Source: Candidatus Giovannonibacteria bacterium (lineage in GTDB: Bacteria > Patescibacteriota > Minisyncoccia > JACPKW01 > UBA11713). Taken from it: a DNA stretch of 64,000 nt. Positions 9,332 to 54,552 of the stretch are shown one piece after another (position 1 is the stretch's first letter; every line of letters starts with the position of its first letter). Location of the stretch: contig JAHFOJ010000002.1 of the NCBI GenBank assembly GCA_023266875.1, positions 3,163 through 67,162 of the forward strand, read 5' to 3'. A program made the translations under genes and the position numbers. The notes under the pieces were generated by a model that had not been told where the DNA came from, made no database searches, and saw nothing but the letters and a program-made list of their open reading frames with translations.

Positions 9332-9357
9332 CCGGGACGAGATTGTTCTCGTCCCGG
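9332..9357. terminator. Perfect 10-bp hairpin (CCGGGACGAG/CTCGTCCCGG) with T-runs on both strands
   Basis: Seen directly in the sequence. On the minus strand it is followed by TTTTTTATTTT, so it is a likely terminator for the minus gene 9377..9724, and it also ends the grpE transcript. Confidence 0.6.
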
Positions 9358-9376
9358 GCGATGAACGGAATTAATG

Positions 9377-9724: not shown

Positions 9725-9801
9725 TCCTCCTTCAAAAACGTTAATATACTAACCCAAACCAAGCTTAAAATATTATTAATTTTTAGTCAAAATATAGAAA
9801 T

Positions 9802-42232: not shown

Positions 42233-42287
42233 AAATCAAGGATAGATCATTAAGAAGATAAAACCTGACGCGAACTATACCCAAATT

Positions 42288-42325
42288 ATCCCACAAAAAG
42301 CCCTTGGGAATAAGGGATAAAAAAA
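42288..42325. repeat. Direct repeat copy 1, TATCCCACAAAAAGCCCTTGGGAATAAGGGATAAAAA
   Basis: About 38 nt with 34/38 identity to copy 2, 360 nt away. It contains a CCCTT/AAGGG hairpin plus A/T runs. Confidence 0.55.
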
Positions 42326-42647: not shown

Positions 42648-42685
42648 TATCCCACAAAAAGCCCGTGGAAATAAGGAATAAAAAT
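42648..42685. repeat. Direct repeat copy 2, TATCCCACAAAAAGCCCGTGGAAATAAGGAATAAAAA
   Basis: See copy 1. Confidence 0.55.
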
Positions 42686-42767: not shown

Positions 42768-44687
42768 ATGAAGACGAAGAAAGCACGATGGATAATCGGA
42801 GGTTTAATTTTTTGGATAGTTGGATTGCTTGAGGGAAAAACTGAAGCAAATTTTGGTGGGCTCCATAGGGAATTTTCCCCATGCGCCCCAGGCAACGGCC
42901 GCGCAGTCGCGTTCAGCCCGGAGAGCAAAAATATTTTCTACACGCTCTGGAACGATACGCGAATATTCATAACCGACCCTAACAACACCACTTGCTCGGC
43001 GATTAATACTGGAATTGTTTTCGGAGCGCTCGCATACGACGGAAAACGCAAACGTCTCTGGGGCGCCGGTTATGACTATGGCCACCGCGGCGGAATTTAT
43101 CTGATTGATTCAAATGGTGCGTCCTCGCTCCAATTCAGCTTCATCCCCAACGAAACAACCTGCCTTCAGAACCAATATCATGGATATTTCACCGGACTTT
43201 CATATGATGAAGGCCCGACTTCATCGAACAGCGATGACTCGCTCTGGCTCGTCGACAATGACGGGAAAACAATTTACCACATGAGTCTGCAAGGCAATTT
43301 AATATCAAGTTCGGTAATTCCAAAGGGACCTCGTACCGGTCTCGTCGGCTGTGCAAATGGCATCGCCTCTGACAGGGACTTCTTGTGGATCACACTTATA
43401 TCTGGGTTGCATGCAGACATAAGCGGCATAATGCCTTTTGACATCGTAAAAGTCAGAAAATCTGACCCATCCACGATCGTCGAAAGTTTTTCTGCGGACA
43501 ACATAAACAACAACAGTCCAATAGGAATAGCGATCGAACGAGGAAAAACCATTCCAGGAAGAACCGGCCTATGGGTCAATTTTACCGGCGGAAATAATAT
43601 TAGACTCTTTGAAGCCGATAAAATCACTCCGGTCATTCTCGTAAACGGCTTTAGTGGCAACGCGGAAAGTTTCGGTCAAATGGCAGAATATCTAGCGCTT
43701 GACGGTTTTCCGGTGTATGTATTTGACTACGGAGAATTTACCGGACTAAATAGCGACATCTCAATCGAAGAAATCGCGGCGCTGTTCGCAGGATATGTTA
43801 ACGACGTCTTAAGAGTGACAGGAACCGGTCAAGTTGATATTGTAGTCCACTCAATGGGCGGACTTGTGGCAAGAGCATGGATCGCCGGCCTTGCGACAGT
43901 TCCGGTAAAATACACAGGACAAATTCGACGTATGATAACGCTCGGCACACTTAATTACGGAGCAGTGGCGGCGTCAATCGCAGATTTGATTATGACCAAT
44001 AACTCACCGATTCAGGGAGACGAGATGGCCCTTGGCAGTAACTTTCTATTAAACCTCCACAAGAATTGGATGGCCTTGAAATCATCAGGCGCGATTCTTC
44101 CTGATATTCTTTTTGTTGCAGGAACAAGCGGCATCGAAAATACTATTGATGAATGCGGCGGGATCGGCTGCTCGGATCAGATTGTCGATATCACAAGCGC
44201 CATTATGCCGGATGCCCCAGCAAACATGGTTCGTTACGTCCCATACATCCACGCGCATATCATGCCGTTGCCGTTCTCTCCGACGTCGATCGCTGAAATA
44301 GATTCAAAGGATCACGCCAGTTACAGAATTGCGAAAGCCTTCCTTGACGACGTAGTCTTGGACCAATGCTGCGACTCCGCCTCAATCGGATACACCCCGC
44401 CCCACGAAAGAAATGTGCCTAAAGAAAAAACGGGGACTCTGATTTTCCAGCTGATTGATAAGAAAGCCCTCACCCCGATTCTCGGCAAAAAAATAACAAT
44501 AAAACTCGATCGCGCAGCAAAAGCCGCGCTAATAGACATCAATTCGGGCACAGCCGGTGTGACAATCTTGAATCTGCCGGAGGGTTTACGCAAAGTAACC
44601 GTATCGGTAAAAGGTCGCAAAAACATAATTCTAAACATTGCAATTAAAGCTGCATACCCAATCGTGATATCAGAAATTGCAATGTGA
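42768..44687 (+). CDS. Secreted multi-domain protein with a class-2 (Bacillus LipA-like) alpha/beta-hydrolase lipase domain
   Basis: A signal peptide and an N-terminal domain of about 280 aa, followed by PVILVNGFSGNAESF ... VDIVVHSMGGLVARAW (the lipase GXSXG nucleophile elbow AHSMGG) and a C-terminal domain of about 230 aa. Confidence 0.75.
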   Translation: MKTKKARWIIGGLIFWIVGLLEGKTEANFGGLHREFSPCAPGNGRAVAFSPESKNIFYTLWNDTRIFITDPNNTTCSAINTGIVFGALAYDGKRKRLWGAGYDYGHRGGIYLIDSNGASSLQFSFIPNETTCLQNQYHGYFTGLSYDEGPTSSNSDDSLWLVDNDGKTIYHMSLQGNLISSSVIPKGPRTGLVGCANGIASDRDFLWITLISGLHADISGIMPFDIVKVRKSDPSTIVESFSADNINNNSPIGIAIERGKTIPGRTGLWVNFTGGNNIRLFEADKITPVILVNGFSGNAESFGQMAEYLALDGFPVYVFDYGEFTGLNSDISIEEIAALFAGYVNDVLRVTGTGQVDIVVHSMGGLVARAWIAGLATVPVKYTGQIRRMITLGTLNYGAVAASIADLIMTNNSPIQGDEMALGSNFLLNLHKNWMALKSSGAILPDILFVAGTSGIENTIDECGGIGCSDQIVDITSAIMPDAPANMVRYVPYIHAHIMPLPFSPTSIAEIDSKDHASYRIAKAFLDDVVLDQCCDSASIGYTPPHERNVPKEKTGTLIFQLIDKKALTPILGKKITIKLDRAAKAALIDINSGTAGVTILNLPEGLRKVTVSVKGRKNIILNIAIKAAYPIVISEIAM

Positions 44688-44745: not shown

Positions 44746-45378
44746 TTAAGCGCGAATATTTTCAAAAAGCGCAAGTATTTTTTCGTGTATAACCGCCGTC
44801 CCCTCTTCTACCGTAATCGAATTAGAATCGTCAAGCCTAAACGGCTCCCCGACGCAAATTTGAATATTTCGGCCTTGGGCTTTTATTGCGATGGGGATCA
44901 CCGGGACTTTCGCGCCTAGCGCGATTGCAGATGCCCCGTGGCGAAAAACTCCAAGCGCGCCGCTTTTTTGCACTCGTCCCTCTGGGAACATCACAACCGT
45001 CTCGCCTGACCTTAGAATATCGAGCGGGGTTTTTATGGCAGCGTCTATCCCTTCCCCGCGCTTCGACGGGAAAACCCCCATAATTCTGAACAGCAACGGG
45101 ATGAGGCCAATTTTCCGCAAAAAATCAAGAAATCTGTGATTAAATTTTATATATTCCCCCATATAACGAAGCGGAACGAGCGGCGAGAAAAGCGGCAAAG
45201 AAAGTCCGATTAAAAATGAGTCGTAAAACGCAATATGATTTGAAACTATAAGCACCGGCCCTGCGACGCGTTTAAACTCTTCGCGGCCCGAAATTTTGAC
45301 CTTACGAAAAATATGAAATAGCAGCCAAGAGCCGGGTTTTATTATAAAATTCTGACTAAATTTATACCAATATTTCAT
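44746..45378 (-). CDS. Lysophospholipid/glycerol-3-phosphate acyltransferase family protein (PlsC-like)
   Basis: The NHxxxxD motif (VSNHIAFYDS) and FPEGR motif. Confidence 0.8.
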   Translation of the reverse strand: MKYWYKFSQNFIIKPGSWLLFHIFRKVKISGREEFKRVAGPVLIVSNHIAFYDSFLIGLSLPLFSPLVPLRYMGEYIKFNHRFLDFLRKIGLIPLLFRIMGVFPSKRGEGIDAAIKTPLDILRSGETVVMFPEGRVQKSGALGVFRHGASAIALGAKVPVIPIAIKAQGRNIQICVGEPFRLDDSNSITVEEGTAVIHEKILALFENIRA

Positions 45379-45500
45379 TGCGCGACCTAATTGACGATGT
45401 TAGAAATTATTTAATTTTGTCTTTTAAATATGGTGAGTAAAAATTTCTATACTTAGATTGAAATTCAAAGTCTTTCCAACTATTAGAATCTATAATTTTT

Positions 45501-46646
45501 CTACATTTTAAACATTCCGGCTAGTAAATCTCGAACAATCTCCGCCGTGCCGGCCGCCAGTGAAAAAGCCTGAGAATCTTGCCGAACATGCGAAAGCCAA
45601 TGATCTTCTAAAAATCCCTCGGCTCCGTGTAGGTGAACACATTCGCTAATAATTTTTTGACAATTCTCGTAACTAAATATTTTCAGCATTAAAATTTCTT
45701 TATCCACCGGCTTACCTTCTGCAAAAGCATCACATACCAAGTAGGTAAACTGTCTAGCGGCTTCTATGGTGGTACGCAACTCGACCATTCTATGACGAAT
45801 GACCTGTTTTTTACTAAGCGCTTCGTCAAATCGATGGCGGCTTTGAAGAAAATTAAGAGTGTCCTCCCAAATATAAAGAGCCAAAGAATTCAGCGCCACA
45901 GCTCCAATTAAACGTTCTCTTTGTAATCCGCGTAATAAGTATAGAAACCCTCGCGTGGAATCTCCAAGTAAACTACCCTTGGAGATTGAACAATCCTTAA
46001 AGCAGATCGATGCGGTATCACTTGTCTTTAATCCAACAGTAACGAGTTTCTCTCTTTTTATACCCCTTGCATCACCTGGCACTAAAAACAAACCAAGCGC
46101 CCAAATATCTTTTTGAGTTTTAGTTCGCGCTAATACAACTGTATAGTTGGCAATGGATCCATTTGTTATATATCTTTTTTCACCATTCAATATATAATTT
46201 TTACCTTTTAGCAGAGCCACTGTAGTAATAGATGCTAAGTCTGACCCGCTACTAGGATCAGTGGCAGCAAGCGCAAGATAAAATTTCCCGGCAAGTGCGG
46301 GTTTTAATATTTTTTCCTTTTGCTCATTATTTCCTAATTGAAAAATTAAAGGAGCAACCATGTTGCTTTGCACTAAAATAGACAACGCCCAGCCTAGTAC
46401 TCTAGATCGAGCTAATTCTTCGGCCAAGATAACTTCATGCCAAAAATCTTTATTACCACCCCCAACACTTTCAGGCAGGGAAAGACCGATAAATCCATGC
46501 TCGCCGACTTTCTGAAGTAGATTTACAGGAATACTTCTTGTTTTTTCCCATTCGAGCGCGTGAGGAATTACTTCTTTTGCTATAAATTTTCTAACAGTTT
46601 GCCGGAAATTTTTATGTGGTACATCTTCAAAAATAATAGGCTCCAT
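45501..46646 (-). CDS. Acyl-CoA dehydrogenase family protein, a possible acyl/aminoacyl-carrier-protein dehydrogenase
   Basis: 381 aa with the ACAD N/M/C-domain pattern (...YITNGSIANY..., C-terminal ...GAEGFLEDHWLSHVRQDSQAFSLAAGTAEI). An ACP gene lies immediately upstream. Confidence 0.8.
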   Translation of the reverse strand: MEPIIFEDVPHKNFRQTVRKFIAKEVIPHALEWEKTRSIPVNLLQKVGEHGFIGLSLPESVGGGNKDFWHEVILAEELARSRVLGWALSILVQSNMVAPLIFQLGNNEQKEKILKPALAGKFYLALAATDPSSGSDLASITTVALLKGKNYILNGEKRYITNGSIANYTVVLARTKTQKDIWALGLFLVPGDARGIKREKLVTVGLKTSDTASICFKDCSISKGSLLGDSTRGFLYLLRGLQRERLIGAVALNSLALYIWEDTLNFLQSRHRFDEALSKKQVIRHRMVELRTTIEAARQFTYLVCDAFAEGKPVDKEILMLKIFSYENCQKIISECVHLHGAEGFLEDHWLSHVRQDSQAFSLAAGTAEIVRDLLAGMFKM

Positions 46647-46650
46647 AATA

Positions 46651-46908
46651 TTAAAAAGATTCTATTGGTAGCTTACGCTTACTACTACCCTTGTTCTGAA
46701 TTACATAATCCACAATATCGCCAACTGTCTTAATATGATTCATTTTACTAGGCTCTATTGAAACTTTATATTCATCACTCAAAACAGCAATTAATTCGAC
46801 TATATCCATTGAGTCCTTGGCGATATCTTCGAGAAGTGTAGAATCATTAACCTGATTCGGTTCTTTATATAACGTAGCTCTTATTATTTCTATAATTTCA
46901 TCTTTCAT
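46651..46908 (-). CDS. Acyl carrier protein (phosphopantetheine attachment DSMD)
   Basis: 85 aa with LEDIAKDSMDIVELIAVL, a PP-binding serine motif. Confidence 0.75.
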   Translation of the reverse strand: MKDEIIEIIRATLYKEPNQVNDSTLLEDIAKDSMDIVELIAVLSDEYKVSIEPSKMNHIKTVGDIVDYVIQNKGSSKRKLPIESF

Positions 46909-47456
46909 AATAAATCCTTAAAATAAGTCTTGAATGGCTCTGTGTTTGAAAGCTTGTCATAAACCTCCTCGTCCATTTTCTCCAATTTCTGCATAATCGC
47001 ATCCAATTTCCCCTGACCATTTTCCCGGGCATACTTATCTAATTCTTCGCGTATCCATCCGATGTGACCAGTCTCATCATCAATCATTTTTTGTAAGGCC
47101 TCTTTAACCAGAGGATTTGTATCGGGTAGGTTTAGATGTTTGGTGAATTGATTAAGTGTGCGTTTTTCAAAAACTTGGGTCAAGCAAAAAATCTCAAGGG
47201 TATTTTCCGGCATCCCGAATAATTTCCCATACTCAGTTTGATAAGTTTCCGTCACCTTAACTGGTATACGTCCAAGATCCTTAATCACTTTTGTCCAACG
47301 CCAAGCATGCTCGGCCTCCTCGAGGCAGTGTTCGGTTAGTGGAATTCGATATTCACCTATAGTGGTGTGAAAAGCAAGTTTACCAAACAAGATTGAGCCA
47401 GATAGTTCACACGCACGATAGTAACTGAGAATATATAATTCTTGGTCTGACATCAT
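46905..47456 (-). CDS. Ferritin-like or diiron-carboxylate protein (putative oxidase/oxygenase subunit)
   Basis: 183 aa with the paired EEAEHAWRW and DDETGHIGW (E..H) motifs typical of diiron sites. It overlaps its neighbours by 4 nt. Confidence 0.5.
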   Translation of the reverse strand: MMSDQELYILSYYRACELSGSILFGKLAFHTTIGEYRIPLTEHCLEEAEHAWRWTKVIKDLGRIPVKVTETYQTEYGKLFGMPENTLEIFCLTQVFEKRTLNQFTKHLNLPDTNPLVKEALQKMIDDETGHIGWIREELDKYARENGQGKLDAIMQKLEKMDEEVYDKLSNTEPFKTYFKDLL

Positions 47457-47458
47457 AT

Positions 47459-48157
47459 TTATATTTGTTTATCGGCAAGAGCTTCACTCGGTCGTTTGCC
47501 CACTAATCGTCCCACTTTTTCATTAAAACCTTGGATGATTCTTATATTATCTTCTTTTGCCGGTGAAACTTGTGGCATAACGTACTCTCCTATGTGTTGA
47601 TAGTTTAGTGCGTGTTCAAGTACCTGACCCTTAACCTTAGGGTCTGCTTTGATCATTTCTTCAAGTAAATCAAAAGCGAATTGAGAATGACTGACTTCTT
47701 CGGCAGAAAATCTTGGCAGAAGATTTTTTAAAACCGGCTCTTCGGTGAGTTGTATGAGGTCTCTAAAGAATTCGGCGGCAAAATGTTCGGTGCCCATAAA
47801 ATTTACTAACTCACGTACTTTGTCCGTATATCTTTTATCCTTATCTTTTGAACGCACATCTCTAACTTCTTCATCTGTTACTGGATTGTATCCGACAATT
47901 TCAAGGTATCGTCGTAAAATAAAATAATGACCATATGCCTCAAACGCCTCTATTGTAAAAATTGAAGTTGCCGCCACGTTGTCCCAAAATAGTTCGTTCA
48001 TTTTTCCTGTGTAAATGGGGAGGTAGCACTCCACAAGACAAGCTTCGCGCAACAAGTCTAAACATTTAGTGTTCTTTAATGCCAATTCTTTATTGATTGA
48101 TTTCCAATCAACCCTGCTATCAAAAATTTTACTATTAGCGAAGTCAATGGTTGTCAT
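47459..48157 (-). CDS. Diiron oxidase/oxygenase-like protein (ferritin-like or heme-oxygenase-like fold)
   Basis: 232 aa with EAFEAYGHY, TEHFAAEFF and AEEVSHSQF His/Glu helices. Confidence 0.5.
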   Translation of the reverse strand: MTTIDFANSKIFDSRVDWKSINKELALKNTKCLDLLREACLVECYLPIYTGKMNELFWDNVAATSIFTIEAFEAYGHYFILRRYLEIVGYNPVTDEEVRDVRSKDKDKRYTDKVRELVNFMGTEHFAAEFFRDLIQLTEEPVLKNLLPRFSAEEVSHSQFAFDLLEEMIKADPKVKGQVLEHALNYQHIGEYVMPQVSPAKEDNIRIIQGFNEKVGRLVGKRPSEALADKQI

Positions 48158-48158
48158 A

Positions 48159-48989
48159 TTAGTCTTTTACTCCAATTAGTATTGTTTGTAACTCATTTTG
48201 ATAAGCGTGAATTGTATTAAATCCGGCTTGATTAGCAAGGATTTTTAAAAAATCCTCTGAACGATAGTGGGTATAAAGTTCTGCAATATTTTTCATTAGA
48301 TATTCGGAAAATTTATGCGGCATCATTCCTGATGTAAAAAATATCCCACCTTCTTTTAAATTATTGTGGGCAATTTTATAAAAATGCAGAGTATCCTCAT
48401 CGCTTAAGAACTCAGTGAACCCCGTACAGATAATCATATCGTATTTTTTGTTTTTTCGGTAGCTCTCTTCATTAAACGCATCCCCTTGCCAAAAAAACAT
48501 TTGATGCTTGTGATGATCATTTTTCTTTCCTAATACCTCTATGAGTTCACGATCCAAATCAATTCCATGCCATCTGATGCGCTTATAAAATGGGTGACTC
48601 GCGATTTGTAGTTCATGGGCGACTTCAAAAATTTCTCTCCCGAGTCCACATGGCACTGCTAAAATATCAATCGGCTCTTTGTGACGCACGTTATCTATAA
48701 GATTGTAGATTTCTTCTTTAGCGTGAATATATCTTGATCGGAGGGAACGAGACGACTTTAAATTTAAGAGTATGGAATCAAGTATTTTTCCGATAACAAA
48801 TTTACCCTTGGGTTTATTGGCATAGATATGATCAGCAAATTGATAGCTTCCTGAATTTTTAATTCCTTCACGAGCCAGCTCACTTGTTAATAGTAAATAA
48901 TAAATAGGCAAAAGATAGGACTTTCCCTCTCTCAATAATTTTCTAGGGATCGAGGAAGATTGGCGAGTTTTATTGTAACATTTTGGCAT
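48159..48989 (-). CDS. Class I SAM-dependent methyltransferase
   Basis: Motif I ILAVPCGLGREIF and WHGIDLD, with a Rossmann MTase arrangement. Confidence 0.7.
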   Translation of the reverse strand: MPKCYNKTRQSSSIPRKLLREGKSYLLPIYYLLLTSELAREGIKNSGSYQFADHIYANKPKGKFVIGKILDSILLNLKSSRSLRSRYIHAKEEIYNLIDNVRHKEPIDILAVPCGLGREIFEVAHELQIASHPFYKRIRWHGIDLDRELIEVLGKKNDHHKHQMFFWQGDAFNEESYRKNKKYDMIICTGFTEFLSDEDTLHFYKIAHNNLKEGGIFFTSGMMPHKFSEYLMKNIAELYTHYRSEDFLKILANQAGFNTIHAYQNELQTILIGVKD

Positions 48990-49743
48990 ATTTTTTGAAT
49001 TTCTTTGGCCAGGTCTTTTGGTCGCCCCCCCAAACTTTTAAACTATAGGCGGTCAATCTTTCTATACCAAAAGCAACACAGAGAGAGTTTGAAAAAGTCT
49101 TGCCATTTTTTATGTCGAAGCGTTTCCCAAAAAAATCTTCGTGATTGTTTATTGAAGCTAACGCGATTTTTCTTTTTCCATCATGTACTATAAATTCTTG
49201 TTTGAGACCTTTAAGTTGCTGAATCATTTTTGCCCCCTCATCTTGTCCAAGAAAGAAAGCATCTGTGGCATTTTTAAACTCACCATTGAACCCGAAATCA
49301 GTAAGGGTTGTTTTTACTAAATCTTCAATCCTCTTAATTTTTTCGATAATCTCTTTTTCATTTCCAATAATTACCAATTCAACCATATGAAAATCTGGGA
49401 GACGATATGGTGATTGCCAATTTCCATTCTCATATCTTGCGCAATGAGCCATTCCAAATGCGGCGTACTTCTTTACGTCTTTACCTTTTAGTTCGGGATA
49501 TACATGTAGGCAAGCCGCCGGTGTTACAAATTGCTCTGTTGAATTAAGAGTATTCATTGCAGTAAAAAGTTGATTTGGAAAATGTTTAAAATATTTTGCA
49601 TCAAACAAAACCTTTTTCGAAATGAAAAGAGGCGGGTTGAAAACTGAATCATAATGGGGACGGAAAATGTTATGCAAAAATAACACCCACGCTTGGAATA
49701 AGCGTATTTTTTGCAACATCGATTTATTATGAGTTTTAGTCAT
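48970..49743 (-). CDS. Truncated seryl-tRNA-synthetase-like class II catalytic core, a putative amino acid:[carrier-protein] ligase
   Basis: 257 aa lacking the N-terminal tRNA-binding arm. Motif 2-like is ...HCARYENG...YRLPDFHMVELVI (compare SerRS CFRREAG...RVHQFEKVE). Motif 3-like is CVAFGIERL. It overlaps the downstream ACP gene by 8 nt. Confidence 0.65.
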   Translation of the reverse strand: MTKTHNKSMLQKIRLFQAWVLFLHNIFRPHYDSVFNPPLFISKKVLFDAKYFKHFPNQLFTAMNTLNSTEQFVTPAACLHVYPELKGKDVKKYAAFGMAHCARYENGNWQSPYRLPDFHMVELVIIGNEKEIIEKIKRIEDLVKTTLTDFGFNGEFKNATDAFFLGQDEGAKMIQQLKGLKQEFIVHDGKRKIALASINNHEDFFGKRFDIKNGKTFSNSLCVAFGIERLTAYSLKVWGGDQKTWPKKFKKYAKMLQ

Positions 49744-49969
49744 CGCTCTTCAAAAATGTTTCCACTATCTTCCGAACAGATTCAAAATTTGGCATTATAA
49801 CTTCATCGTCTGTTAATTTTCGTCCCAAATGCTTTTCTATATAGCCGATAAGATCGAGAATATTCATTGAATCTAATACTTTATCCTTAAATAGGAGGGT
49901 ATTTGAATCGATGGTTCGACCCTTATCACGACAAATGCTTTTTATAAATTTTAGAAGTTCCTGTTGCAT
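49736..49969 (-). CDS. Acyl/aminoacyl carrier protein (phosphopantetheine attachment DSMN)
   Basis: 77 aa with KVLDSMNILDLIGYIE, a PP-binding serine. Confidence 0.75.
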   Translation of the reverse strand: MQQELLKFIKSICRDKGRTIDSNTLLFKDKVLDSMNILDLIGYIEKHLGRKLTDDEVIMPNFESVRKIVETFLKSDD

Positions 49970-49970
49970 A

Positions 49971-51131
49971 TTATTGAATTTTACCCCATTTAGATTTTAT
50001 GCAGTACTCTATAACTTTTCCGTAGTAATCGCGAATACCCGGCAAATGCTTTTTATAATCTGGGAGCATCGCCAACAGACTGTTTTGGAAAAAGTTTTTT
50101 GGATAGAGAAGTTGATGGGCAAAATGATTAAGAGCGGATAATACGTTTTTTAAAACGGGATTATTTGCGGATACCGCTGAATTCATAAAGAGGTCAAAAG
50201 CCTCTTCTGATACAATAGCTGGTTTAGGATAGTTTTTTTCTACCCAGCTAGAGTCTGCTTCTGCCATGCCCTTAAAACTCTCATCTATGATTTCTTGCAG
50301 GGTTAGTGATCCTGATCCGTGTGTAATATGAAAAGTTTTATTTGGGGAAAAGTTATTCCAAAAGAGGTTAAAAAGAGTACTCGCCGTATAGTCACTCGAA
50401 ATGAGATCAACAGAGTAGTTAGGAGTACCAGGAAACATTGAAGCTAAGCCAAGATACATCATGCGTATTGCTTGGTGGGGTGCAGTAAAATGACTAACCT
50501 TTCCTGTTTTACTATCGCCAATTACCGTAGAAAGGCGGTATATAGCCACAGGAACACTTTTAGCCAAGTTCTTCAAAAATACCTCCGCTTCATATTTGGA
50601 TTGCTCGTATGTATTTACAAAACCAGCCTCATGTTCTAACTCGTTTTCTTTGATAATCCCTATTCTTTTGCCGCTTACGTAAGCTGTGCTTATAAAGCCA
50701 AATTGTTTGAGGTTAGAACACTTTTGACCAAAGTCAGCAACATTTTTTGTGCCGGTAACATTTATTTGTCTTGCTTCACCCAGCGGAAGATCAAATCTCG
50801 TAGAGGCGGCACAGTGAAAAATATGGGTCGTTTTACCAAGTAGATCGTTATAGTCGGAAGAACTTTCTACCCCCATATTCTGTTTTGTGATATCGCCCTT
50901 TATAATTTGTAATCTTTCCATGAATTCTTTTTTATTTTGCAATGCAAAAAATGATTGTAAAATCGTTTTTTTATCACCACCCGATCCCTTGTCATGTACT
51001 AAAAGATAGATATTTGCTTGAGTATTTTTAAACAAAAGAGAAACGAGCTCTCTCCCTACCATCCCCGTGCCACCGGTAATAAAAATTTGTTGCGCCATAT
51101 ACTCTAATGTTGCAAGATTAGACAAGACCAA
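49971..51131 (-). CDS. NAD(P)-dependent thioester reductase (fatty acyl-CoA/ACP reductase-like, NAD_binding_4/SDR fold)
   Basis: Rossmann ITGGTGMVG, catalytic YEQSK (YxxxK), and a length and organisation typical of terminal reductase (R) domains. Confidence 0.7.
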   Translation of the reverse strand: MVLSNLATLEYMAQQIFITGGTGMVGRELVSLLFKNTQANIYLLVHDKGSGGDKKTILQSFFALQNKKEFMERLQIIKGDITKQNMGVESSSDYNDLLGKTTHIFHCAASTRFDLPLGEARQINVTGTKNVADFGQKCSNLKQFGFISTAYVSGKRIGIIKENELEHEAGFVNTYEQSKYEAEVFLKNLAKSVPVAIYRLSTVIGDSKTGKVSHFTAPHQAIRMMYLGLASMFPGTPNYSVDLISSDYTASTLFNLFWNNFSPNKTFHITHGSGSLTLQEIIDESFKGMAEADSSWVEKNYPKPAIVSEEAFDLFMNSAVSANNPVLKNVLSALNHFAHQLLYPKNFFQNSLLAMLPDYKKHLPGIRDYYGKVIEYCIKSKWGKIQ

Positions 51132-52075
51132 TTGGCTCCAAAGCCAAACGTAAATAACGCCAGATAATCTCCTTTTTTAAGATAGCCATCTTTATCCATA
51201 TCTACGAGATTAATAATATGATCACAAGAAACGGTGTGACCAACTCGTGATATATTTTTTGACCAAATCTTTTCCATTGGAGTGTGAAGTAGCTTTGAGA
51301 GTATCTCCCAACTCCTTAAACTCACATTATGAGGTACAAACCATTTAATATCTGACATGGTTAATCCCGCCCCCTTAACTGCGTTTTCAATTGTCCGTTG
51401 TGCCATTGGAAAATAAGAAGCTAATAATTCGTTTTCATGTTGCGGGGTATCCCAGTAGTAGGATTGAAATTCTTGATGAAAATATACTATCCTATTCTTT
51501 TCGGAATTTTTGGTGACTACAAGTGCTGCCGTGGCATCACTCATAATGTTGTACATAATTTCTCTTTTGGTTCCAGCTGGTAATGCATCAACAGCTGCGC
51601 ATAGTATTGATTCTTGTTGCGTGTTTGAGTTAGAAAGCAATTGATCCGCCAGATCAATTGCAGATAACAATCCGCTGCAACCCTGTTGAGATAGACCAAT
51701 TGCGTTCGCATTAAAAAGCCCAAGCTTATGTCGAAGCTCTGCGGCCGGATAACGAAATAAATTCAATGCGTTACCCTCATCTTGGTTATTAGCACTGTTG
51801 ATTCCGGAGTATAAAAAAATTCGAGTAATACTATCACCGGTAGTTTTATTTTCGCGCAAGACTTCTTCGGCGCTATTTAATAAAAGACCCTCAATGCTCT
51901 CGTTGTTGCTTTGAACATAACATTCCCTAAATCCAAAATCGTGCAATACTGATACAGGCGAAGTGATCTTCTTTTCTTCCTCGAGTTGTTCAAGCGACTT
52001 CTTATTTCTGGGAAGCCGATATGCCAGCGCCGCTATACCAATTGATGTTTGGCTTTTGTCTATATTTTTTTTCAT
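51104..52075 (-). CDS. 3-oxoacyl-ACP synthase III (FabH-like) ketosynthase/acyltransferase
   Basis: The active-site Cys block GCSGLLSAIDLA, the His block WFVPHNVS and the C-terminal FGFGANWSCLIL, all in the thiolase fold. Confidence 0.75.
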   Translation of the reverse strand: MKKNIDKSQTSIGIAALAYRLPRNKKSLEQLEEEKKITSPVSVLHDFGFRECYVQSNNESIEGLLLNSAEEVLRENKTTGDSITRIFLYSGINSANNQDEGNALNLFRYPAAELRHKLGLFNANAIGLSQQGCSGLLSAIDLADQLLSNSNTQQESILCAAVDALPAGTKREIMYNIMSDATAALVVTKNSEKNRIVYFHQEFQSYYWDTPQHENELLASYFPMAQRTIENAVKGAGLTMSDIKWFVPHNVSLRSWEILSKLLHTPMEKIWSKNISRVGHTVSCDHIINLVDMDKDGYLKKGDYLALFTFGFGANWSCLILQH

Positions 52076-52694
52076 AAGCTACGCTGATATAAAAATCTTT
52101 TACCTTAAATGGCCAAACATACCAAATAGGCGATTTAAATTTATGCATCTTAACTTTAAAAGTTGTATTTTTAATCTTATCAATAATTTCTGCTTGTTTG
52201 GGAGGTATAGCAAAACCAACCCCGACTCCTTTCATAACTGACTCTTTGATAACCCAGATTAGGCTTATTATATCTGTTCTACTCCCAAAAAAATTTTGCA
52301 CTAAGTCTATCTCATTCTGGTCAGCAACATAGTTAAGAAGAGATTTTTTATGAGGTCTAATCTTCTCTATGTCGATACCTACTTTATATGGAGCGACAAC
52401 TCCAATTCCTCGATCATACGAATGACTCAATGAATAATAAATATTATACCGTCCTTCAATATACGGCAATCCATTTTCGGCATTTTTAATAGTTACATCC
52501 TTATCTAAATCCTCGGCGACATAGTTGGTCAGGGCTTGTTTTAATGCAATGCGTCCTAGCAAAAAATCTTTCTTTCTATTATTGGAGAGTTGGCGATATT
52601 GATGAAGTTCGTTTTTATTTAGCTTCGACTTGGCATTGGAATCGATTTTATTAATGCCGACTATACTGGATGTCATGCTTATATAATCACACAA
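52002..52694 (-). CDS. 4'-phosphopantetheinyl transferase (Sfp type)
   Basis: VGIDIEKI (GxDxE) and WVIKESVMKGVGVG (W..KEA..K motif). Confidence 0.75.
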   Translation of the reverse strand: MCDYISMTSSIVGINKIDSNAKSKLNKNELHQYRQLSNNRKKDFLLGRIALKQALTNYVAEDLDKDVTIKNAENGLPYIEGRYNIYYSLSHSYDRGIGVVAPYKVGIDIEKIRPHKKSLLNYVADQNEIDLVQNFFGSRTDIISLIWVIKESVMKGVGVGFAIPPKQAEIIDKIKNTTFKVKMHKFKSPIWYVWPFKVKDFYISVAYEKKYRQKPNINWYSGAGISASQK

Positions 52695-52713
52695 AATCTG
52701 TTATAATTCAACT

Positions 52714-53214
52714 ATGATTTTAACCTACATTTATTTGGGTTTGGTATTACTTGGACTTTGTTTTATTGCTTTTCGAAATAAGACTTCACTATTAAGGGGC
52801 GATAGATTTTTAAGATTCAACTTATTTTTTTTAATAATATCAGTGGTAATTGTTTTTGTAAGAAAAACATCCCTAGAAGACTTAATCATGATTGGTCTAG
52901 CATTTGTTGTAATAATTTCGTTTTTGTTTAGAAACAAGTGGCTGCTATTTAAATACTCATCTCTTAAAACATCGGCTGTTGTAGAAGACTCATTATCAAG
53001 AGTTTTGATACCATTTCAAAAAACAGAGAGTGGATATATACTTAAACCGACACCAGAAGGAAGTACTTATTTGCGATTGGCGAATTTTTGGCCAAATTGT
53101 GCTATTATTATTTTCGGAGGCGATTGGCATTTAAAAAAGGTCGAGGTGCTAAAAAACCTTCTCAAGAAAAATTTTTCTGGGGTATTCCCCAAACTAGTAA
53201 TTAAATTAAAATAA
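52714..53214 (+). CDS. Hypothetical integral membrane protein
   Basis: 166 aa with about 4 TM helices. It is divergent from the biosynthetic operon. Confidence 0.4.
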   Translation: MILTYIYLGLVLLGLCFIAFRNKTSLLRGDRFLRFNLFFLIISVVIVFVRKTSLEDLIMIGLAFVVIISFLFRNKWLLFKYSSLKTSAVVEDSLSRVLIPFQKTESGYILKPTPEGSTYLRLANFWPNCAIIIFGGDWHLKKVEVLKNLLKKNFSGVFPKLVIKLK

Positions 53215-53218
53215 CCTT

Positions 53219-53656
53219 ATGTCACGAGTTACTAAAGTAGCTTCAATAAAAGCAGAGCCAGCTAAGGTGATAGAGTACATTGCTAATGTAAAAAATCATC
53301 CAGCTTTTATTTCGGCACTAAAATCAATCGACAACCTCAATGGGGATCCAAAGCACATGGGTGAAAGCTGGGATTGGACATTCGTTATGGGCGGAGTTGA
53401 GATCAATGGTAAGGCAGAGACGGCTGACTATGTGGCAGGCAAACACTATTCGTTCAAAACCACCGGTGGTATAGTAAGCGCTTTTAGCTACAGTGTTGAG
53501 CCCGAAGATGGCGGTGCAAGACTGACTATGGATGTGAACTATGAAGTTCCACAAAATGTGCTTGCCAAAGCAATGGACAAAGCTGTTGTTGAGCGATTGA
53601 ACAATCAAGAAGGTGATCGAGCGGTTGAGAATCTTCAAGCTATACTCGGAGTTTAA
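53219..53656 (+). CDS. SRPBCC (START/Bet v1/polyketide cyclase-like) ligand-binding protein
   Basis: 145 aa with ...AEPAKVIEYIANVKNHPAF... and a fold-typical pattern. Confidence 0.65.
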   Translation: MSRVTKVASIKAEPAKVIEYIANVKNHPAFISALKSIDNLNGDPKHMGESWDWTFVMGGVEINGKAETADYVAGKHYSFKTTGGIVSAFSYSVEPEDGGARLTMDVNYEVPQNVLAKAMDKAVVERLNNQEGDRAVENLQAILGV

Positions 53657-53687
53657 TGAATTTCTTGTCCGGCATTGTTCCAATGCT

Positions 53688-54287
53688 ATGGTTGTATTTG
53701 CTCAATATTGCTTTTACCTTATCTCCCATCCTCTATTTAAGATATTTTTTCAACCAAAAATCGTTGGCATCGAACATATACCAACGAGGCCTTTCATTGT
53801 AGCGGCAAATCATACTTCAAAAATAGACCCGTTTCTTTTGTGTCTATTACCTTTTTCAGCAGCTAAACAATTGATGCCAATTTATTTTTTAACCAGTGAA
53901 TATTATTATAAAAAATGGTATCTCAAGCCTATATTAAAATTGTTTGGTTGTTATCCCGTAGCGAAAAGGGCATGGACAATGGAAGAATTTTTGTCCAGCA
54001 GTCTTAAGAAACTAAAGAATGGAAAGGTAATCATGTTTTTCCCTGAGGGGAAAATTATAAATGATGGCAAGAGAGATAAACCTCGGCCAGGGATTGGATA
54101 TTTAATCGAAAAATCAAGTAAGCCGATTTTACCCTTACACATAGAGTGGGGTAAAAACAAAGCCCTCGCTCCTAAAAAATTAAAACTTTCTTTTGGTAAG
54201 TTACTGTCATTCCAAAATGAGAGTGGACAACTAAATTCTTATGGAAAAACAGCAGAAAAAATAATGGCAAATATTTATTCATTATAA
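53688..54287 (+). CDS. Second PlsC-family acyltransferase
   Basis: The NHxxxxD motif (AANHTSKIDP) and FPEGK motif. The ATG at 53688 is more likely than the track start. Confidence 0.75.
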   Translation: MVVFAQYCFYLISHPLFKIFFQPKIVGIEHIPTRPFIVAANHTSKIDPFLLCLLPFSAAKQLMPIYFLTSEYYYKKWYLKPILKLFGCYPVAKRAWTMEEFLSSSLKKLKNGKVIMFFPEGKIINDGKRDKPRPGIGYLIEKSSKPILPLHIEWGKNKALAPKKLKLSFGKLLSFQNESGQLNSYGKTAEKIMANIYSL

Positions 54288-54376: not shown

Positions 54377-54454
54377 TGGCGCCCCCGCCGGGATTTGAAC
54401 CCGGGTTACATGGATGAGAACCATGCGTCCTGGACCAGGCTAGACGACAGGGGC
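54377..54454 (-). tRNA. tRNA-Glu (anticodon CTC)
   Basis: Manual cloverleaf: GCCCCTG acceptor, anticodon stem CATGG/CCATG with loop TTCTCAT, T-arm CCGGG-TTCAAAT-CCCGG and 3' GCCA. The 5' half resembles canonical tRNA-Glu. Confidence 0.8.
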
Positions 54455-54552
54455 ATTGTTTTTAAAATAATATCTTTTTCTGATTAAAAATTCAATAAAA
54501 TTATACCTCATAGACCTTTTCGTGCGAAAAGGTCTATGCTGTTTTGATCTAA

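What the first reader, a model, noticed from the sequence alone, without database searches (positions are those of the whole stretch)
44746..52694. Eleven-gene carrier-protein-based biosynthetic operon in a reduced genome
This is a contiguous minus-strand operon whose genes overlap by 4-74 nt. In order it encodes an Sfp-type PPTase, a FabH-like ketosynthase, a thioester reductase, an ACP, a truncated SerRS-like amino acid:[carrier-protein] ligase, a SAM methyltransferase, two diiron-oxidase-like proteins, a second ACP, an acyl-CoA-dehydrogenase homolog and a PlsC-like acyltransferase. The logic resembles known pathways that load an amino acid on a carrier protein, oxidise and extend it, and release it reductively. 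Examples are prolyl-S-PCP oxidation by ACAD homologs, and aa:CP ligases feeding thiotemplate chemistry. Here, though, the aaRS-like loader and reductive release are combined with FabH, diiron oxidases and acyltransferases. CPR-like organisms are generally thought to lack secondary-metabolite and lipid biosynthesis. That makes this a candidate undescribed pathway, possibly for an N-modified aminoacyl aldehyde, alcohol or lipid.
Basis: partly seen in the sequence, partly recalled or inferred. Interest (0 to 1): 0.92.

Follow-up and report, generated by a model that had tools for sequence, protein, structure and literature searches.

The report
Amino-acid/carrier-protein biosynthetic cassette in CPR bacterium
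A compact gene cassette that is unusual for an ultra-small, metabolically reduced bacterium loads an amino acid onto a carrier protein with a tRNA-synthetase relative and seems to turn it into a small, oxidised, methylated, lipid-like amino compound; the same cassette recurs in more than 80 environmental DNA fragments from at least three phyla and has not been described.

Summary
All eleven minus-strand genes exist at the stated coordinates and all eleven family calls hold. Catalytic residues are intact and invariant across 9-60 homologues per gene.

Three corrections:
- The conserved unit is not 44746-52694 but about 45501-54287. It adds a divergent trio: a 3-TM membrane protein, an SRPBCC protein and a PlsC-type acyltransferase.
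- The terminal PlsC gene (44746-45378) sits behind a 122-nt gap, has host-like GC and is essentially window-specific.
- The ACAD is an accessory gene, not core.

The host is a CPR bacterium (RpoA is closest to Giovannonibacteria/Paceibacterota). The cassette is flanked on both sides by housekeeping genes, has 36.8% GC against 43% for the rest, and abuts a tRNA-Glu. It looks like an acquired island, not contamination. The same gene order recurs in more than 80 loci from Paceibacterota, Chloroflexota, Dormibacterota and unbinned metagenomes.

It is not FAS II and not a true SerRS. The loader is a divergent Zn-dependent amino acid:[carrier protein] ligase, a family whose biological role is reported as unknown. 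The two diiron proteins have no Pfam or NCBIfam family. Their nearest relatives, all weak, act on thioester- or lipid-bound substrates.

The product is not determined. The best reading is a thiotemplated amino-acid-plus-acyl pathway with O2/SAM tailoring and reductive release. I rate it a new variant of a known kind.

The parts
52002..52694 (-). Sfp-type 4'-phosphopantetheinyl transferase (230 aa, TTG start); primes both carrier proteins
   Evidence: PF01648 4.4e-14 and a weak PF17837 hit. Best NCBIfam hits are AusB, HetI, AcpT and EntD, i.e. Sfp-type. Found in 25 related loci, always first in the operon.
51104..52075 (-). Divergent KS-III (FabH-fold) enzyme with a Cys133 / His280 / Asn250 active site; condensing enzyme or acyltransferase
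   Evidence: PF08541 9.1e-19. FabH NCBIfam models score 57-67 bits against cut-offs of 249-292. In the alignment to FabH structures, Cys aligns with Cys, and FabH Asn274 corresponds to His280. Cys133, Asn250 and His280 are 25/25 conserved. The FabH His244 equivalent is His in only 13 of 25 (Ser 11, Ala 1).
49971..51131 (-). Stand-alone NAD(P)H thioester reductase (TR, 386 aa)
   Evidence: PF07993 2.2e-52, TIGR01746 1.9e-30, NF005539 2e-37. Best PDB match is the MxaA R domain at 5e-18. Thr149, Tyr175, Lys179 and the glycines G20, G23 and G26 of the nucleotide-binding loop are conserved in 30-31 of 31.
49736..49969 (-). ACP1 (77 aa), probable aminoacyl carrier; overlaps the ligase gene by 8 nt
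   Evidence: PF00550 9.7e-4. Weak DltC-, AsbD- and ACP-like NCBIfam hits. The Asp33-Ser34 Ppant site is 41/41 conserved.
48970..49743 (-). Amino acid:[carrier protein] ligase homologue (257 aa; truncated methanogen-type SerRS catalytic core)
   Evidence: NF005479 1.6e-25, which is 89.7 bits against a cut-off of 357. The family profile matches Bll0957 at 2.1e-31, against 5.5e-11 for type-2 SerRS. Zn ligands C78, E122 and C222, motif 2 (R103, E105) and motif 3 (R229) are 40/40 conserved.
48159..48989 (-). Class I SAM-dependent methyltransferase (PF12147 type, 276 aa)
   Evidence: PF12147 1.9e-13 plus generic methyltransferase domains. Among the best-conserved genes: 80-88% identity in close CPR relatives; found in 66 loci.
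47459..48157 (-). DiFe1: ferritin-like diiron oxygenase of an unnamed family (232 aa)
   Evidence: No Pfam or NCBIfam family. Ligand set E43, E70/E73, H77, E124, E154 and H157 is 60/60 conserved. The profile hits M. tuberculosis DesA2 at 2.4e-8. AF2 pLDDT is 96.1. Foldseek's top hits are R2lox, stearoyl-ACP desaturases and an ADO-like protein, with E >= 3e-3 and TM 0.5-0.58.
46905..47456 (-). DiFe2: second ferritin-like diiron protein of an unnamed, rare family (183 aa)
   Evidence: Canonical ligands E17, E47xxH50, E97 and E128xxH131 are 44/44 conserved. Only 193 representatives at E <= 1e-3 among 1.84 billion. AF2 pLDDT is 95.5. Foldseek's top hits are PaaC/PaaA, ADO-like proteins, MiaE and ferritins, with E >= 8e-4. 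Weak AurF signal: Pfam 0.0045, and hhalign 1.2e-3 to a Streptomyces AurF-family protein.
46651..46908 (-). ACP2 (85 aa), AcpP-like acyl carrier protein
   Evidence: PF00550 8.6e-10, TIGR00517 2.6e-13. Ser33 is 49/49 conserved.
45501..46646 (-). Acyl-CoA/ACP dehydrogenase homologue (381 aa), LCAD/IVD type; accessory member of the cassette
   Evidence: All three ACAD domains are present. Best PDB matches are 2PG0 at 1e-65 and human LCAD at 9e-62. The helix-G catalytic Glu244 is present; the MCAD E376 position is Ala. Present in 12 loci, and absent in L001/2, L008 and L010 although there is room.
44746..45378 (-). PlsC-type acyltransferase 1 (210 aa); a window-specific neighbour, probably not part of the mobile cassette
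   Evidence: PF01553 5.4e-17 with an HX4D motif at residue 48. Lies 122 nt after the ACAD and has 45.5% GC, which is host-like. One weak counterpart only among related loci.
52714..53214 (+). Small membrane protein (166 aa; three hydrophobic N-terminal segments plus a C-terminal domain), divergent from the operon
   Evidence: No Pfam or NCBIfam family. Found in 18 loci, always next to the SRPBCC gene. Co-directional with the operon in L082/L083.
53219..53656 (+). SRPBCC / polyketide-cyclase-like small-molecule-binding protein (145 aa)
   Evidence: PF10604 2.2e-13. 80-83% identical in close CPR relatives; found in 20 loci.
53613..54287 (+). PlsC-type acyltransferase 2 (224 aa), the conserved acyltransferase of the cassette
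   Evidence: PF01553 7.5e-19. Best NCBIfam hit is acyl-[ACP]--phospholipid O-acyltransferase at 1.2e-22. HX4D motif at residue 67. Present in 11 loci. In L082/L083 a PlsC gene directly follows ACP2.
54377..54454 (-). tRNA-Glu(CUC) abutting the low-GC cassette; a possible integration landmark
   Evidence: ARAGORN and Rfam. GC of 45501-54287 is 36.8%, against 43.3 +/- 1.2% in outside 8-kb windows. No boundary direct repeat was found.

Best explanation
This is a self-contained, horizontally mobile thiotemplate cassette. It most likely builds a small lipophilic amino compound from one alpha-amino acid and an acyl unit, using two dedicated carrier proteins.

Proposed course:
1. The Sfp-type PPTase converts ACP1 and ACP2 to their holo forms.
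2. The Zn-dependent aa:CP ligase activates a small alpha-amino acid with ATP and thioesters it to ACP1.
3. While the intermediate is thioester-bound, the two diiron proteins use O2 to oxidise it. They may work as a PaaA/PaaC-like pair. The chemistry is N-oxygenation of the tethered amine and/or desaturation or hydroxylation of the chain. The SAM methyltransferase then methylates it.
4. The KS-III enzyme uses Cys133 to join or transfer the ACP1- and ACP2-borne units.
5. The stand-alone reductase releases the product as an aldehyde or alcohol.
6. The PlsC-type acyltransferase uses acyl-ACP2 to acylate the product, or a scavenged lysolipid. The SRPBCC protein and the small membrane protein bind or place the hydrophobic product. 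In the CPR branch, an LCAD-type dehydrogenase adds an alpha,beta-unsaturation.

Shown here: gene identities, intact catalytic residues, co-inheritance and the mobile-island character.

Inferred: the substrates, the order of steps 3-5, and the product.
For: Parts and residues:
- Catalytic residues are invariant across 9-60 homologues per gene.

Co-inheritance:
- The gene order is identical in L001-L079 wherever there is room.
- It holds in a version with only 32% DiFe2 identity. There all genes are co-directional and a PlsC gene follows ACP2.
- No other recurrent accessory gene appears: no FabD, no AasS, no aminotransferase.

Ligase:
- It matches the solved aa:CP ligase Bll0957 at 2e-31 and keeps the Zn triad.
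- ACP1 overlaps the ligase gene by 8 nt.

Diiron proteins:
- Their nearest relatives act on thioester- or lipid-bound substrates: DesA2 and stearoyl-ACP desaturases, R2lox, PaaAC, and ADO-like proteins.

Recurring partners of aa:CP-ligase homologues elsewhere:
- ACP-ACAD-ligase-DUF1839 in B. gladioli.
- KS-III x3, ACAD and BtrH_N in B. wiedmannii.
- AurF-family N-oxygenase-ACP-ligase-PPTase in Streptomyces.

Lipid handling:
- The PlsC genes are closest to acyl-ACP--phospholipid acyltransferases.
- The SRPBCC protein is a hydrophobic-ligand fold.

Island character.
Against: - No biochemical data exist. The amino acid is unknown.
- Nothing in the cassette obviously loads ACP2: there is no malonyl or acyl transferase and no acyl-ACP synthetase.
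- The FabH His244 equivalent of KS3 is Ser or Ala in 12 of 25 members, so a FabH-type decarboxylative condensation is doubtful.
- All diiron similarities are weak (E >= 8e-4 by fold; 2.4e-8 by profile). They point in two directions: acyl-chain chemistry and N-oxygenation.
- The ligase scores far below NCBI's equivalog cut-off (89.7 against 357 bits) and lacks about 60-90 N-terminal residues of the characterised enzymes.
- The order of the steps cannot be derived from sequence.
Confidence: 0.55

Rival explanations
1. pvf/ham-like signal pathway. The amino acid tethered to ACP1 is N-oxygenated by the diiron protein(s) to a hydroxylamine or nitroso species. It is methylated and then released reductively by TR as an N-oxidised amino aldehyde. 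That aldehyde cyclises or dimerises, or is acylated as in fragin, using ACP2, KS3 and PlsC. This would give a diffusible signal or metallophore.
For: - The ham/pvf clusters combine an NRPS A-T-R, an AurF-like diiron N-oxygenase that acts on tethered valine, and an SRPBCC 'polyketide cyclase' (HamE/PvfD). Fragin is N-acylated (PMC11659414).
- Here ligase + ACP1 + TR + diiron + SRPBCC are all core genes.
- A Streptomyces plasmid has AurF-family oxygenase-ACP-aa:CP-ligase-like-PPTase.
- DiFe2 has its only oxygenase-type Pfam signal in AurF (0.0045), and it aligns both ExxH motifs with the Streptomyces AurF protein (E 1.2e-3).
Against: - Neither diiron protein reaches the AurF family threshold.
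- DiFe1 is closer to acyl-ACP desaturases and R2lox.
- There is no HamA/PvfA-type haem-oxygenase-like protein, no cupin and no aminotransferase.
- The diiron genes sit next to ACP2, not ACP1.
Confidence: 0.2
2. Membrane-lipid remodelling for a fatty-acid auxotroph. ACP2 carries a scavenged fatty acyl chain. DiFe1/DiFe2 desaturate or hydroxylate it, the ACAD may dehydrogenate it, and Aas-like PlsC enzymes put it onto scavenged lysophospholipids. The ligase/ACP1/TR/MT arm supplies an amino-alcohol head group or starter.
For: - DiFe1 matches DesA2 at 2.4e-8 and has desaturase and R2lox fold neighbours.
- The ACAD is closest to LCAD.
- The best PlsC hits are acyl-[ACP]--phospholipid O-acyltransferases.
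- The window also has a lipase, a second PlsC and an OlsG-like methyltransferase next to the cassette.
- The literature reports that Patescibacteria lack fatty-acid synthesis and recycle lipids (PMC12455944).
Against: - There is no acyl-ACP synthetase or other loader for ACP2.
- The lipase, PlsC1 and MT20b are not conserved with the cassette.
- The cassette also occurs in Chloroflexota and Dormibacterota, phyla not known as fatty-acid auxotrophs (background knowledge, not tested here).
- This reading does not explain why an amino-acid loader and a TR are invariant core genes.
Confidence: 0.12
3. PLP-independent route to a sphingoid-like long-chain amino alcohol. Seryl- or glycyl-ACP1 is converted to an aminomalonyl-type or activated glycyl nucleophile. 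KS3 condenses it with an acyl unit to give 2-amino-3-oxoacyl-ACP1. TR reduces the thioester to the alcohol, giving a 3-ketosphinganine analogue. MT N-methylates it and PlsC acylates it.
For: - The ligase-ACP-ACAD triad in B. gladioli resembles the ZmaJ/ZmaH/ZmaI logic for aminomalonyl-ACP. That comparison rests on established knowledge and was not tested here.
- The scheme finds a role for every core gene.
- The TR's best structural relative, MxaA, performs a four-electron reduction (background knowledge; the hit itself is).
- SRPBCC/START folds bind lipids.
Against: - This is purely inferential.
- The ACAD is accessory.
- KS3 lacks a conserved FabH-type His.
- There is no evidence on substrate or chain length.
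- There is no loader for the acyl partner.
Confidence: 0.07
4. Ordinary housekeeping paralogues: a FAS II set plus a true SerRS.
For: Generic FabH, ACP and SDR domain hits.
Against: - KS3 scores 57-67 bits against FabH cut-offs of 249-292.
- The loader scores 38.7 bits against 611 for SerRS and lacks the tRNA-binding domain.
- There is no FabD, FabG, FabZ or FabI in or near the cluster in any locus.
- The cluster is compositionally foreign to its host.
Confidence: 0.01
5. Contamination or chimeric assembly: the cluster belongs to a non-CPR organism.
For: - GC is 36.8% against 43% for the rest of the window.
- The cassette also occurs in Chloroflexota and Dormibacterota.
Against: - The cassette lies in the interior of the contig, with CPR-type housekeeping genes on both sides. 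All window proteins map to one 77,226-bp contig.
- Its closest relatives (56-93% identity) come from independent Paceibacterota/Zambryskibacteria assemblies, including contigs of 205 kb and 503 kb.
Confidence: 0.03

Closest known systems
Amino acid:[carrier protein] ligases (Bll0957, Bll6282, Atu2573; Mocibob et al. 2010, 2013) and their loci
   Same: - Truncated methanogen-type SerRS catalytic core.
- Zn triad and class II motifs 2 and 3.
- A carrier-protein gene lies adjacent.
- An ACAD next to ACP and ligase is also seen in B. gladioli.
   Different: - Only 25-32% identical to annotated homologues.
- About 60-90 residues shorter at the N terminus.
- Far below NCBI's equivalog cut-off.
- Embedded in a 12-14-gene cassette with TR, KS-III, MT, two diiron proteins, a second ACP, SRPBCC and PlsC.
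- The role of the characterised enzymes is itself unknown (PMC9437257).
pvf / ham clusters (pyrazine N-oxides, valdiazen, fragin)
   Same: - An amino acid is loaded on a carrier.
- A diiron oxygenase acts on the tethered amino acid.
- Release is reductive.
- An SRPBCC protein is present.
- In fragin there is a later acylation.
   Different: - The loader is an aaRS homologue, not an A domain, and all parts are free-standing.
- The diiron proteins are not AurF-family members.
- There is no HamA, HamB or HamG equivalent.
- KS-III, MT, ACP2 and PlsC are extra.
Aminomalonyl-/hydroxymalonyl-/methoxymalonyl-ACP cassettes (Zma, Fkb)
   Same: A free-standing loader, a dedicated ACP, an ACAD homologue and a methyltransferase act on a small ACP-bound unit. 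That unit is then used by a ketosynthase.
   Different: - There is no 3-hydroxyacyl-CoA-dehydrogenase homologue.
- The ACAD is accessory here.
- Diiron proteins, TR and PlsC are present.
- No modular PKS is nearby.
Soluble acyl-ACP desaturases / DesA2, R2lox, PaaAC epoxidase, AAR-ADO alkane pathway
   Same: - Ferritin-like four-helix-bundle diiron sites.
- Substrates presented as ACP or CoA thioesters, fatty acids or aldehydes.
- A heteromeric pair of ferritin-like subunits, as in PaaA/PaaC.
- A reductase plus a diiron enzyme, as in AAR/ADO.
   Different: - Similarities are weak (TM 0.5-0.74, identity 12-20%).
- Both proteins are much shorter than the desaturases.
- Both keep full ligand sets, unlike PaaC.
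- Neither matches the ADO Pfam family.
Aas / PlsC lysophospholipid acyltransferases
   Same: HX4D acyltransferase domain. The best NCBIfam hits are acyl-[ACP]--phospholipid O-acyltransferases.
   Different: Stand-alone proteins of about 210-224 aa, without the acyl-ACP synthetase domain. The acceptor is unknown.

Membership tests
Amino acid:[carrier protein] ligase | Class II aaRS catalytic core of the methanogen-type SerRS lineage, without the tRNA-binding domain | tested here: met
   257 aa. The match covers model positions 337-506 of the 518-position SerRS model. The profile hits Bll0957 at 2.1e-31, against 5.5e-11 for SerRS.
Amino acid:[carrier protein] ligase | Active-site Zn ligands Cys-Glu-Cys plus the motif 2 and motif 3 arginines | tested here: met
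   C78, E122 and C222 align with C131, E176 and C279 of Bll0957. R103, E105 and R229 are 40/40 conserved.
Amino acid:[carrier protein] ligase | Score above NCBIfam NF005479's equivalog cut-off | tested here: not met
   89.7 bits against a cut-off of 357. This is a divergent subfamily.
Amino acid:[carrier protein] ligase | ATP-dependent aminoacylation of the Ppant arm of a cognate carrier protein | not testable with these tools
   Only an adjacent, overlapping ACP gene with a conserved Ser34 supports this.
FabH / KAS III (FAS II initiation) | Cys-His-Asn triad and a score above the FabH cut-offs | tested here: not met
   Cys133 is kept. The Asn274 position is His280. The His244 position is variable (His 13, Ser 11, Ala 1). 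Scores are 57-67 bits against cut-offs of 249-292.
NRPS/PKS-type thioester reductase (TIGR01746 / PF07993) | Rossmann glycine-rich nucleotide-binding motif and a Thr-Tyr-Lys triad | tested here: met
   PF07993 2.2e-52. T149, Y175 and K179 are conserved in 30-31 of 31. TIGR01746 scores 106 bits, below its cut-off of 213.
Sfp-type PPTase | About 230 aa, two-lobed, with the PF01648 domain | tested here: met
   PF01648 52.9 bits (cut-off 25). 4PPT_N is sub-threshold. Best NCBIfam relatives are AusB, HetI, AcpT and EntD.
Ferritin-like diiron carboxylate oxygenases | Four-helix bundle with a six-residue carboxylate/His ligand set (E, ExxH, E, ExxH; in DiFe1 the second-helix pair is E70/E73...H77) | tested here: met
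   DiFe1: E43, E70/E73, H77, E124, E154 and H157, 60/60. DiFe2: E17, E47, H50, E97, E128 and H131, 44/44. AF2 models have pLDDT 96 and 95.5.
Soluble acyl-ACP desaturase (PF03405) / AurF N-oxygenase (PF11583) / ADO (PF11266) | Match to the family model at its threshold | tested here: not met
   No hit to the desaturase or ADO models. DiFe2 against AurF scores 16.6 bits (cut-off 29.6). DiFe1 against DesA2 reaches only 2.4e-8 over 120 residues.
Acyl-CoA dehydrogenase | Three ACAD domains and a catalytic Glu | tested here: met
   PF02771, PF02770 and PF00441 all lie above their cut-offs. Glu244 (LCAD/IVD position) is 9/9 conserved.
Prolyl-carrier-protein dehydrogenase (PigA/RedW/AnaB) | Closest relationship to that subfamily | tested here: not met
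   PigA scores 148 bits (cut-off 500) and RedW 138 (cut-off 650). LCAD, IVD and 2PG0 are much closer (1e-65 against 3e-36 for AnaB).
PlsC / LPLAT acyltransferase | PF01553 domain with the HX4D motif | tested here: met
   PF01553 at 5.4e-17 and 7.5e-19. HIAFYD at residue 48 and HTSKID at residue 67.
pvf/ham-type cluster | AurF-family N-oxygenase + NRPS A-T-R + PvfA/HamA haem-oxygenase-like protein + SRPBCC | tested here: not met
   Only the SRPBCC protein and functional analogues (ligase, ACP, TR, non-AurF diiron proteins) are present. There is no A domain and no HO-like protein.
FAS II operon | FabD, FabG, FabZ/A, FabI/K, FabF/B together with AcpP | tested here: not met
   None of these occurs in the cluster or its conserved flanks in any locus.

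The most novel reading that the evidence does not exclude
The cassette would give the first biological role to the orphan aa:CP ligases. It would be a mobile pathway, independent of NRPS, PKS and PLP, in which an aaRS-derived loader, two new diiron oxygenase families and a stand-alone reductase turn an amino acid plus an acyl unit into a new class of N-oxidised or methylated long-chain amino alcohol or aldehyde. The product could be sphingoid-like or fragin-like. It would let ultra-small CPR bacteria make their own membrane-active lipid or signal despite lacking fatty-acid synthesis.
Probability: 0.12. Interest if true: 0.9.

Novelty: new variant of a known kind. Interest (0 to 1): 0.72.

Why it matters
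[quoted passage not shown] These enzymes were first described in 2010. This cassette puts a divergent member into a tightly conserved 12-14-gene context, which makes the question directly testable by heterologous expression.
- It defines two diiron protein families with no Pfam or NCBIfam model. DiFe1 has about 180 clusters at 90% identity. DiFe2 has about 190 representatives at 50% identity.
- CPR/Patescibacteria are regarded as poor in secondary-metabolite and lipid biosynthesis. A self-priming, O2-dependent, horizontally shared pathway in them, also found in soil Dormibacterota and Chloroflexota, bears on how episymbionts build or modify envelopes or signal to hosts.

Tried and rejected
- Exact-sequence look-up of the window's ligase found no contig record. 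Related contigs were reached through homologues instead.
- The Minicystis rosea locus (L011, 32% ligase hit) gave no usable context. ORF calling in that high-GC DNA yielded no Pfam hits around the match.
- OlsH/OlsI ornithine-lipid pathway: I followed this because of a weak ACP1 hit. It proved unrelated (GH3-like enzyme).
- Prolyl-PCP dehydrogenase analogy: not supported, because the ACAD is LCAD/IVD-like and accessory.
- tRNA-derived direct repeats at the island borders: none found.
- Promoter and terminator scans were not enriched over shuffles and gave no operon boundary.
- No DiFe1 homologue exists in the plasmid collection.
- The afdb50 fold library was unavailable.
- The original PNAS paper on aa:CP ligases is not held.
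- A search for 'PF12147' in papers found nothing.
- DiFe1 and DiFe2 are not close paralogues (hhalign E 1.1e-3).
- Amino-acid specificity of the ligase could not be inferred from sequence.

Full report
**1. Observation**

Pfam and NCBIfam confirm each assignment:
- Sfp-type PPTase: PF01648, 4.4e-14.
- KS-III: PF08541, 9.1e-19.
- Thioester reductase: PF07993, 2.2e-52; TIGR01746, 1.9e-30.
- ACP1: PF00550, 9.7e-4.
- Class II aaRS core: best NCBIfam hit is 'amino acid--[acyl-carrier-protein] ligase' (NF005479, 1.6e-25).
- Methyltransferase: PF12147, 1.9e-13.
- Two ferritin-like proteins: only sub-threshold hits.
- ACP2: PF00550, 8.6e-10; TIGR00517, 2.6e-13.
- ACAD: all three ACAD domains.
- PlsC-type acyltransferase: PF01553, 5.4e-17.

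The operon is compact, but 'overlaps of 4-74 nt' holds for only five junctions. Four junctions have gaps of 1-4 nt. The last gene lies 122 nt after the ACAD.

**2. True extent of the cluster**

I compared sixteen window proteins by tblastn with 87 related loci. These came from GTDB genomes, ENA/JGI/NCBI contigs and a metagenome scan. The order PPT-KS3-TR-ACP1-ligase-MT-DiFe1-DiFe2-ACP2 is kept wherever the contig is long enough.

A divergent trio precedes the operon: a membrane protein, an SRPBCC protein and, often, a PlsC acyltransferase. In the window these lie at 52714-54287.

A far relative has only 32% DiFe2 identity. There all twelve genes are co-directional, and the PlsC gene directly follows ACP2 (L082/L083).

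The ACAD occurs in only 12 loci, mostly those whose proteins are closest to the window's. It is absent in other loci that have room for it.

The window's terminal PlsC1, the lipase (42768-44687) and a second PF12147-like methyltransferase (41351-42232) are not conserved with the cassette. No further gene recurs: no FabD, acyl-ACP synthetase, aminotransferase or transporter.

**3. Host and integrity**

The window encodes AlaRS, RpoA, DnaK/J, DnaB, CysRS, GluRS, AspRS, MurD/G, FtsW, an MraY-type glycosyltransferase and ScpA/B on both sides of the cluster. All tested proteins map to one 77,226-bp public contig. RpoA is 63-66% identical to Candidatus Giovannonibacteria, Patescibacteria and Paceibacterota proteins. 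The host is therefore a CPR bacterium.

The conserved cassette (45501-54287) has 36.8% GC. Outside 8-kb windows have 43.3 +/- 1.2%, with a minimum of 40.8%. PlsC1 and the lipase have host-like GC. A tRNA-Glu abuts the cassette. This is the signature of an acquired island inside a CPR chromosome, not of contamination.

The closest copies (56-93% protein identity) come from independent Paceibacterota and Zambryskibacteria assemblies. Others lie in Anaerolineaceae/Chloroflexota, Dormibacterota and Minisyncoccota contigs of up to 503 kb.

**4. The parts**

*Ligase.* A profile of 18 family members hits the solved aa:CP ligase Bll0957 at 2.1e-31, against 5.5e-11 for type-2 SerRS. The Zn ligands (C78, E122, C222) and motifs 2 and 3 (R103, E105, R229) are invariant in 40 sequences. 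The protein is shorter than the characterised enzymes and scores far below NCBI's equivalog cut-off. It is a divergent subfamily.

*ACP1 and ACP2.* Both keep the Ppant serine in every homologue (41/41 and 49/49).

*TR.* It keeps Thr149, Tyr175 and Lys179, and is closest to the MxaA R domain.

*KS3.* It keeps Cys133. FabH's Asn274 position is an invariant His280. FabH's His244 position is His in only 13 of 25 members. It is a remodelled thiolase-fold enzyme that may condense or merely transfer.

*ACAD.* It is closest to LCAD, IVD and 2PG0, and has the helix-G catalytic Glu244.

*DiFe1 and DiFe2.*
- Both have complete, invariant diiron ligand sets.
- Both have confident AF2 models (pLDDT 96.1 and 95.5).
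- Neither has a Pfam or NCBIfam family.
- DiFe1's nearest relatives are M. tuberculosis DesA2 (2.4e-8), R2lox, stearoyl-ACP desaturases and an ADO-like protein.
- DiFe2's nearest relatives are PaaC/PaaA of phenylacetyl-CoA epoxidase, ADO-like proteins and MiaE. It also has a faint AurF signal.
- All of these similarities are weak.
- DiFe2 has only 193 representatives among 1.84 billion. DiFe1 has about 180 clusters at 90% identity, all unnamed.

*PlsC1 and PlsC2.* Their best hits are acyl-[ACP]--phospholipid O-acyltransferases.

**5. What partners aa:CP-ligase homologues keep elsewhere**

Annotated plasmid records show three patterns:
- ACP-ACAD-ligase-DUF1839 in Burkholderia gladioli.
- A ligase-like gene with an ACP, three KS-III-like genes, an ACAD and a BtrH_N protein in Bacillus wiedmannii.
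- AurF-family N-oxygenase-ACP-ligase-like-PPTase inside a type II PKS/FAS-like cluster in Streptomyces.

ACADs, KS-III enzymes and diiron oxygenases are therefore recurrent partners of these loaders. That argues they work on the aminoacyl-S-ACP or on what is built from it.

**6. Mechanism**

I commit to a two-carrier thiotemplate pathway:
1. The PPTase primes both ACPs.
2. The ligase puts a small alpha-amino acid on ACP1.
3. The diiron pair and the methyltransferase tailor the tethered intermediate.
4. KS3 couples or transfers between the ACP1 and ACP2 units.
5. TR releases an aldehyde or alcohol.
6. PlsC, SRPBCC and the membrane protein acylate and handle a hydrophobic product.

The parts, their residues and their co-inheritance are shown. 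The substrates, the order of steps and the product are inferred. My confidence in this is about 0.55.

Two more specific readings compete:
- A pvf/ham-like route. This involves N-oxygenation of the tethered amino acid, reductive release and acylation. It is supported by the shared A-T-R/diiron/SRPBCC logic and by the Streptomyces locus.
- A lipid route. This involves desaturation of acyl-ACP2 and transfer to lysolipids. It is supported by the DesA2, LCAD and Aas similarities, and by the reported lipid scavenging of Patescibacteria.

A third, more speculative reading is a PLP-independent route to a sphingoid-like base. The main unexplained point in every version is how ACP2 gets loaded.

**7. 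Comparison with known systems and novelty**

The cluster is not FAS II, not a SerRS, and not a member of the pvf/ham, Zma/Fkb, AAR/ADO or prodigiosin pathways (see the membership tests). It resembles each of them in part.

A 2022 review states that the biological role of aa:CP ligases remains unknown. The literature and family-library searches made here found no description of this cassette.

I rate it a new variant of a known kind, namely free-standing carrier-protein-dependent biosynthesis. It has two unnamed diiron families and an unusual host range.

**8. Limits**

There is no biochemistry behind any of this. Similarities for the diiron proteins are weak. The amino-acid specificity could not be determined. 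The rest of the host genome was not available, so I could not check for FAS II, CoA or acyl-ACP synthetase genes.

Noticed in passing
window 45501-54287 and 54377-54454: The conserved cassette has 36.8% GC (GC3 0.26-0.40) against 43% for the rest of the window. It abuts a tRNA-Glu(CUC) gene. This looks like a genomic island, but no boundary direct repeat was found.
   Followed up: partly
window 42287-42323 and 42648-42684: A 37-nt direct repeat (92% identical), with copies 361 nt apart, brackets the short intergenic/small-ORF stretch between the second PF12147-like methyltransferase and the lipase gene.
   Followed up: no
window 41351-42232 (-), 42768-44687 (+): Window-specific neighbours of the cassette. 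One is a second PF12147-like methyltransferase, 24% identical to MT20, whose weak best NCBIfam hit is the ornithine-lipid N-methyltransferase OlsG; it overlaps the end of a 7TM histidine-kinase gene by 4 nt. The other is a 639-aa protein with a class-2 lipase / alpha-beta-hydrolase domain and an unassigned N-terminal region of about 280 aa.
   Followed up: partly
L001 and L002, 6900-8650: In two ENA contigs an IS (DDE_Tnp_1 transposase) sits just upstream of a KS-III gene truncated to 139 aa. PPTase, SRPBCC and the membrane protein are missing. This looks like a decaying copy of the cassette.
   Followed up: no
L004, L017, L019 (Anaerolineaceae-type): The cassette stops after DiFe1. DiFe2 and ACP2 are replaced by a cytidylyltransferase-like gene and large membrane proteins. 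It is either a variant or a truncated form.
   Followed up: no
L013 5272-7448: A partial cassette lies beside ribosomal protein S5, SecY and Adk genes: ligase, a 500-aa gene call containing the MT domain, and a DiFe1-like match. It may be a fusion or a frameshifted remnant.
   Followed up: no
L080 and L081: A DiFe2 homologue (36% identity) occurs in a different mini-context: PPTase, DiFe2-like, ACP, then an ICMT-like membrane methyltransferase. The DiFe2+ACP+PPTase module may be used in other pathways too.
   Followed up: no
protein P0192: One DiFe1 homologue (53% identity) is on a 221-kb contig that NCBI labels 'Candidatus Pacearchaeota archaeon'. This is either a mis-binned CPR contig or a transfer into DPANN archaea.
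   Followed up: no
L086 (Streptomyces sp. NBC_00335 plasmid) 7732-10469: An AurF-family diiron N-oxygenase, an ACP, an aa:CP-ligase-like protein and a PPTase lie inside a type II PKS/FAS-like cluster. This is an apparently uncharacterised actinomycete pathway that may N-oxygenate a carrier-bound amino acid.
   Followed up: partly
window 52695-52713: Only 19 nt separate the divergent start codons of the PPTase (TTG) and the membrane-protein gene. Either the promoters lie within coding sequence, or the PPTase start is downstream (an in-frame ATG at codon 7).
   Followed up: no
window 867-2045 and 2038-3495 (+): Two large adjacent ORFs (392 and 485 aa) downstream of the AlaRS fragment have no Pfam family.
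   Followed up: no
window 54509-54538: A strong 13-bp-stem hairpin followed by a T-rich tail lies between tRNA-Glu and the Mur-ligase gene. It is a probable bidirectional terminator.
   Followed up: no
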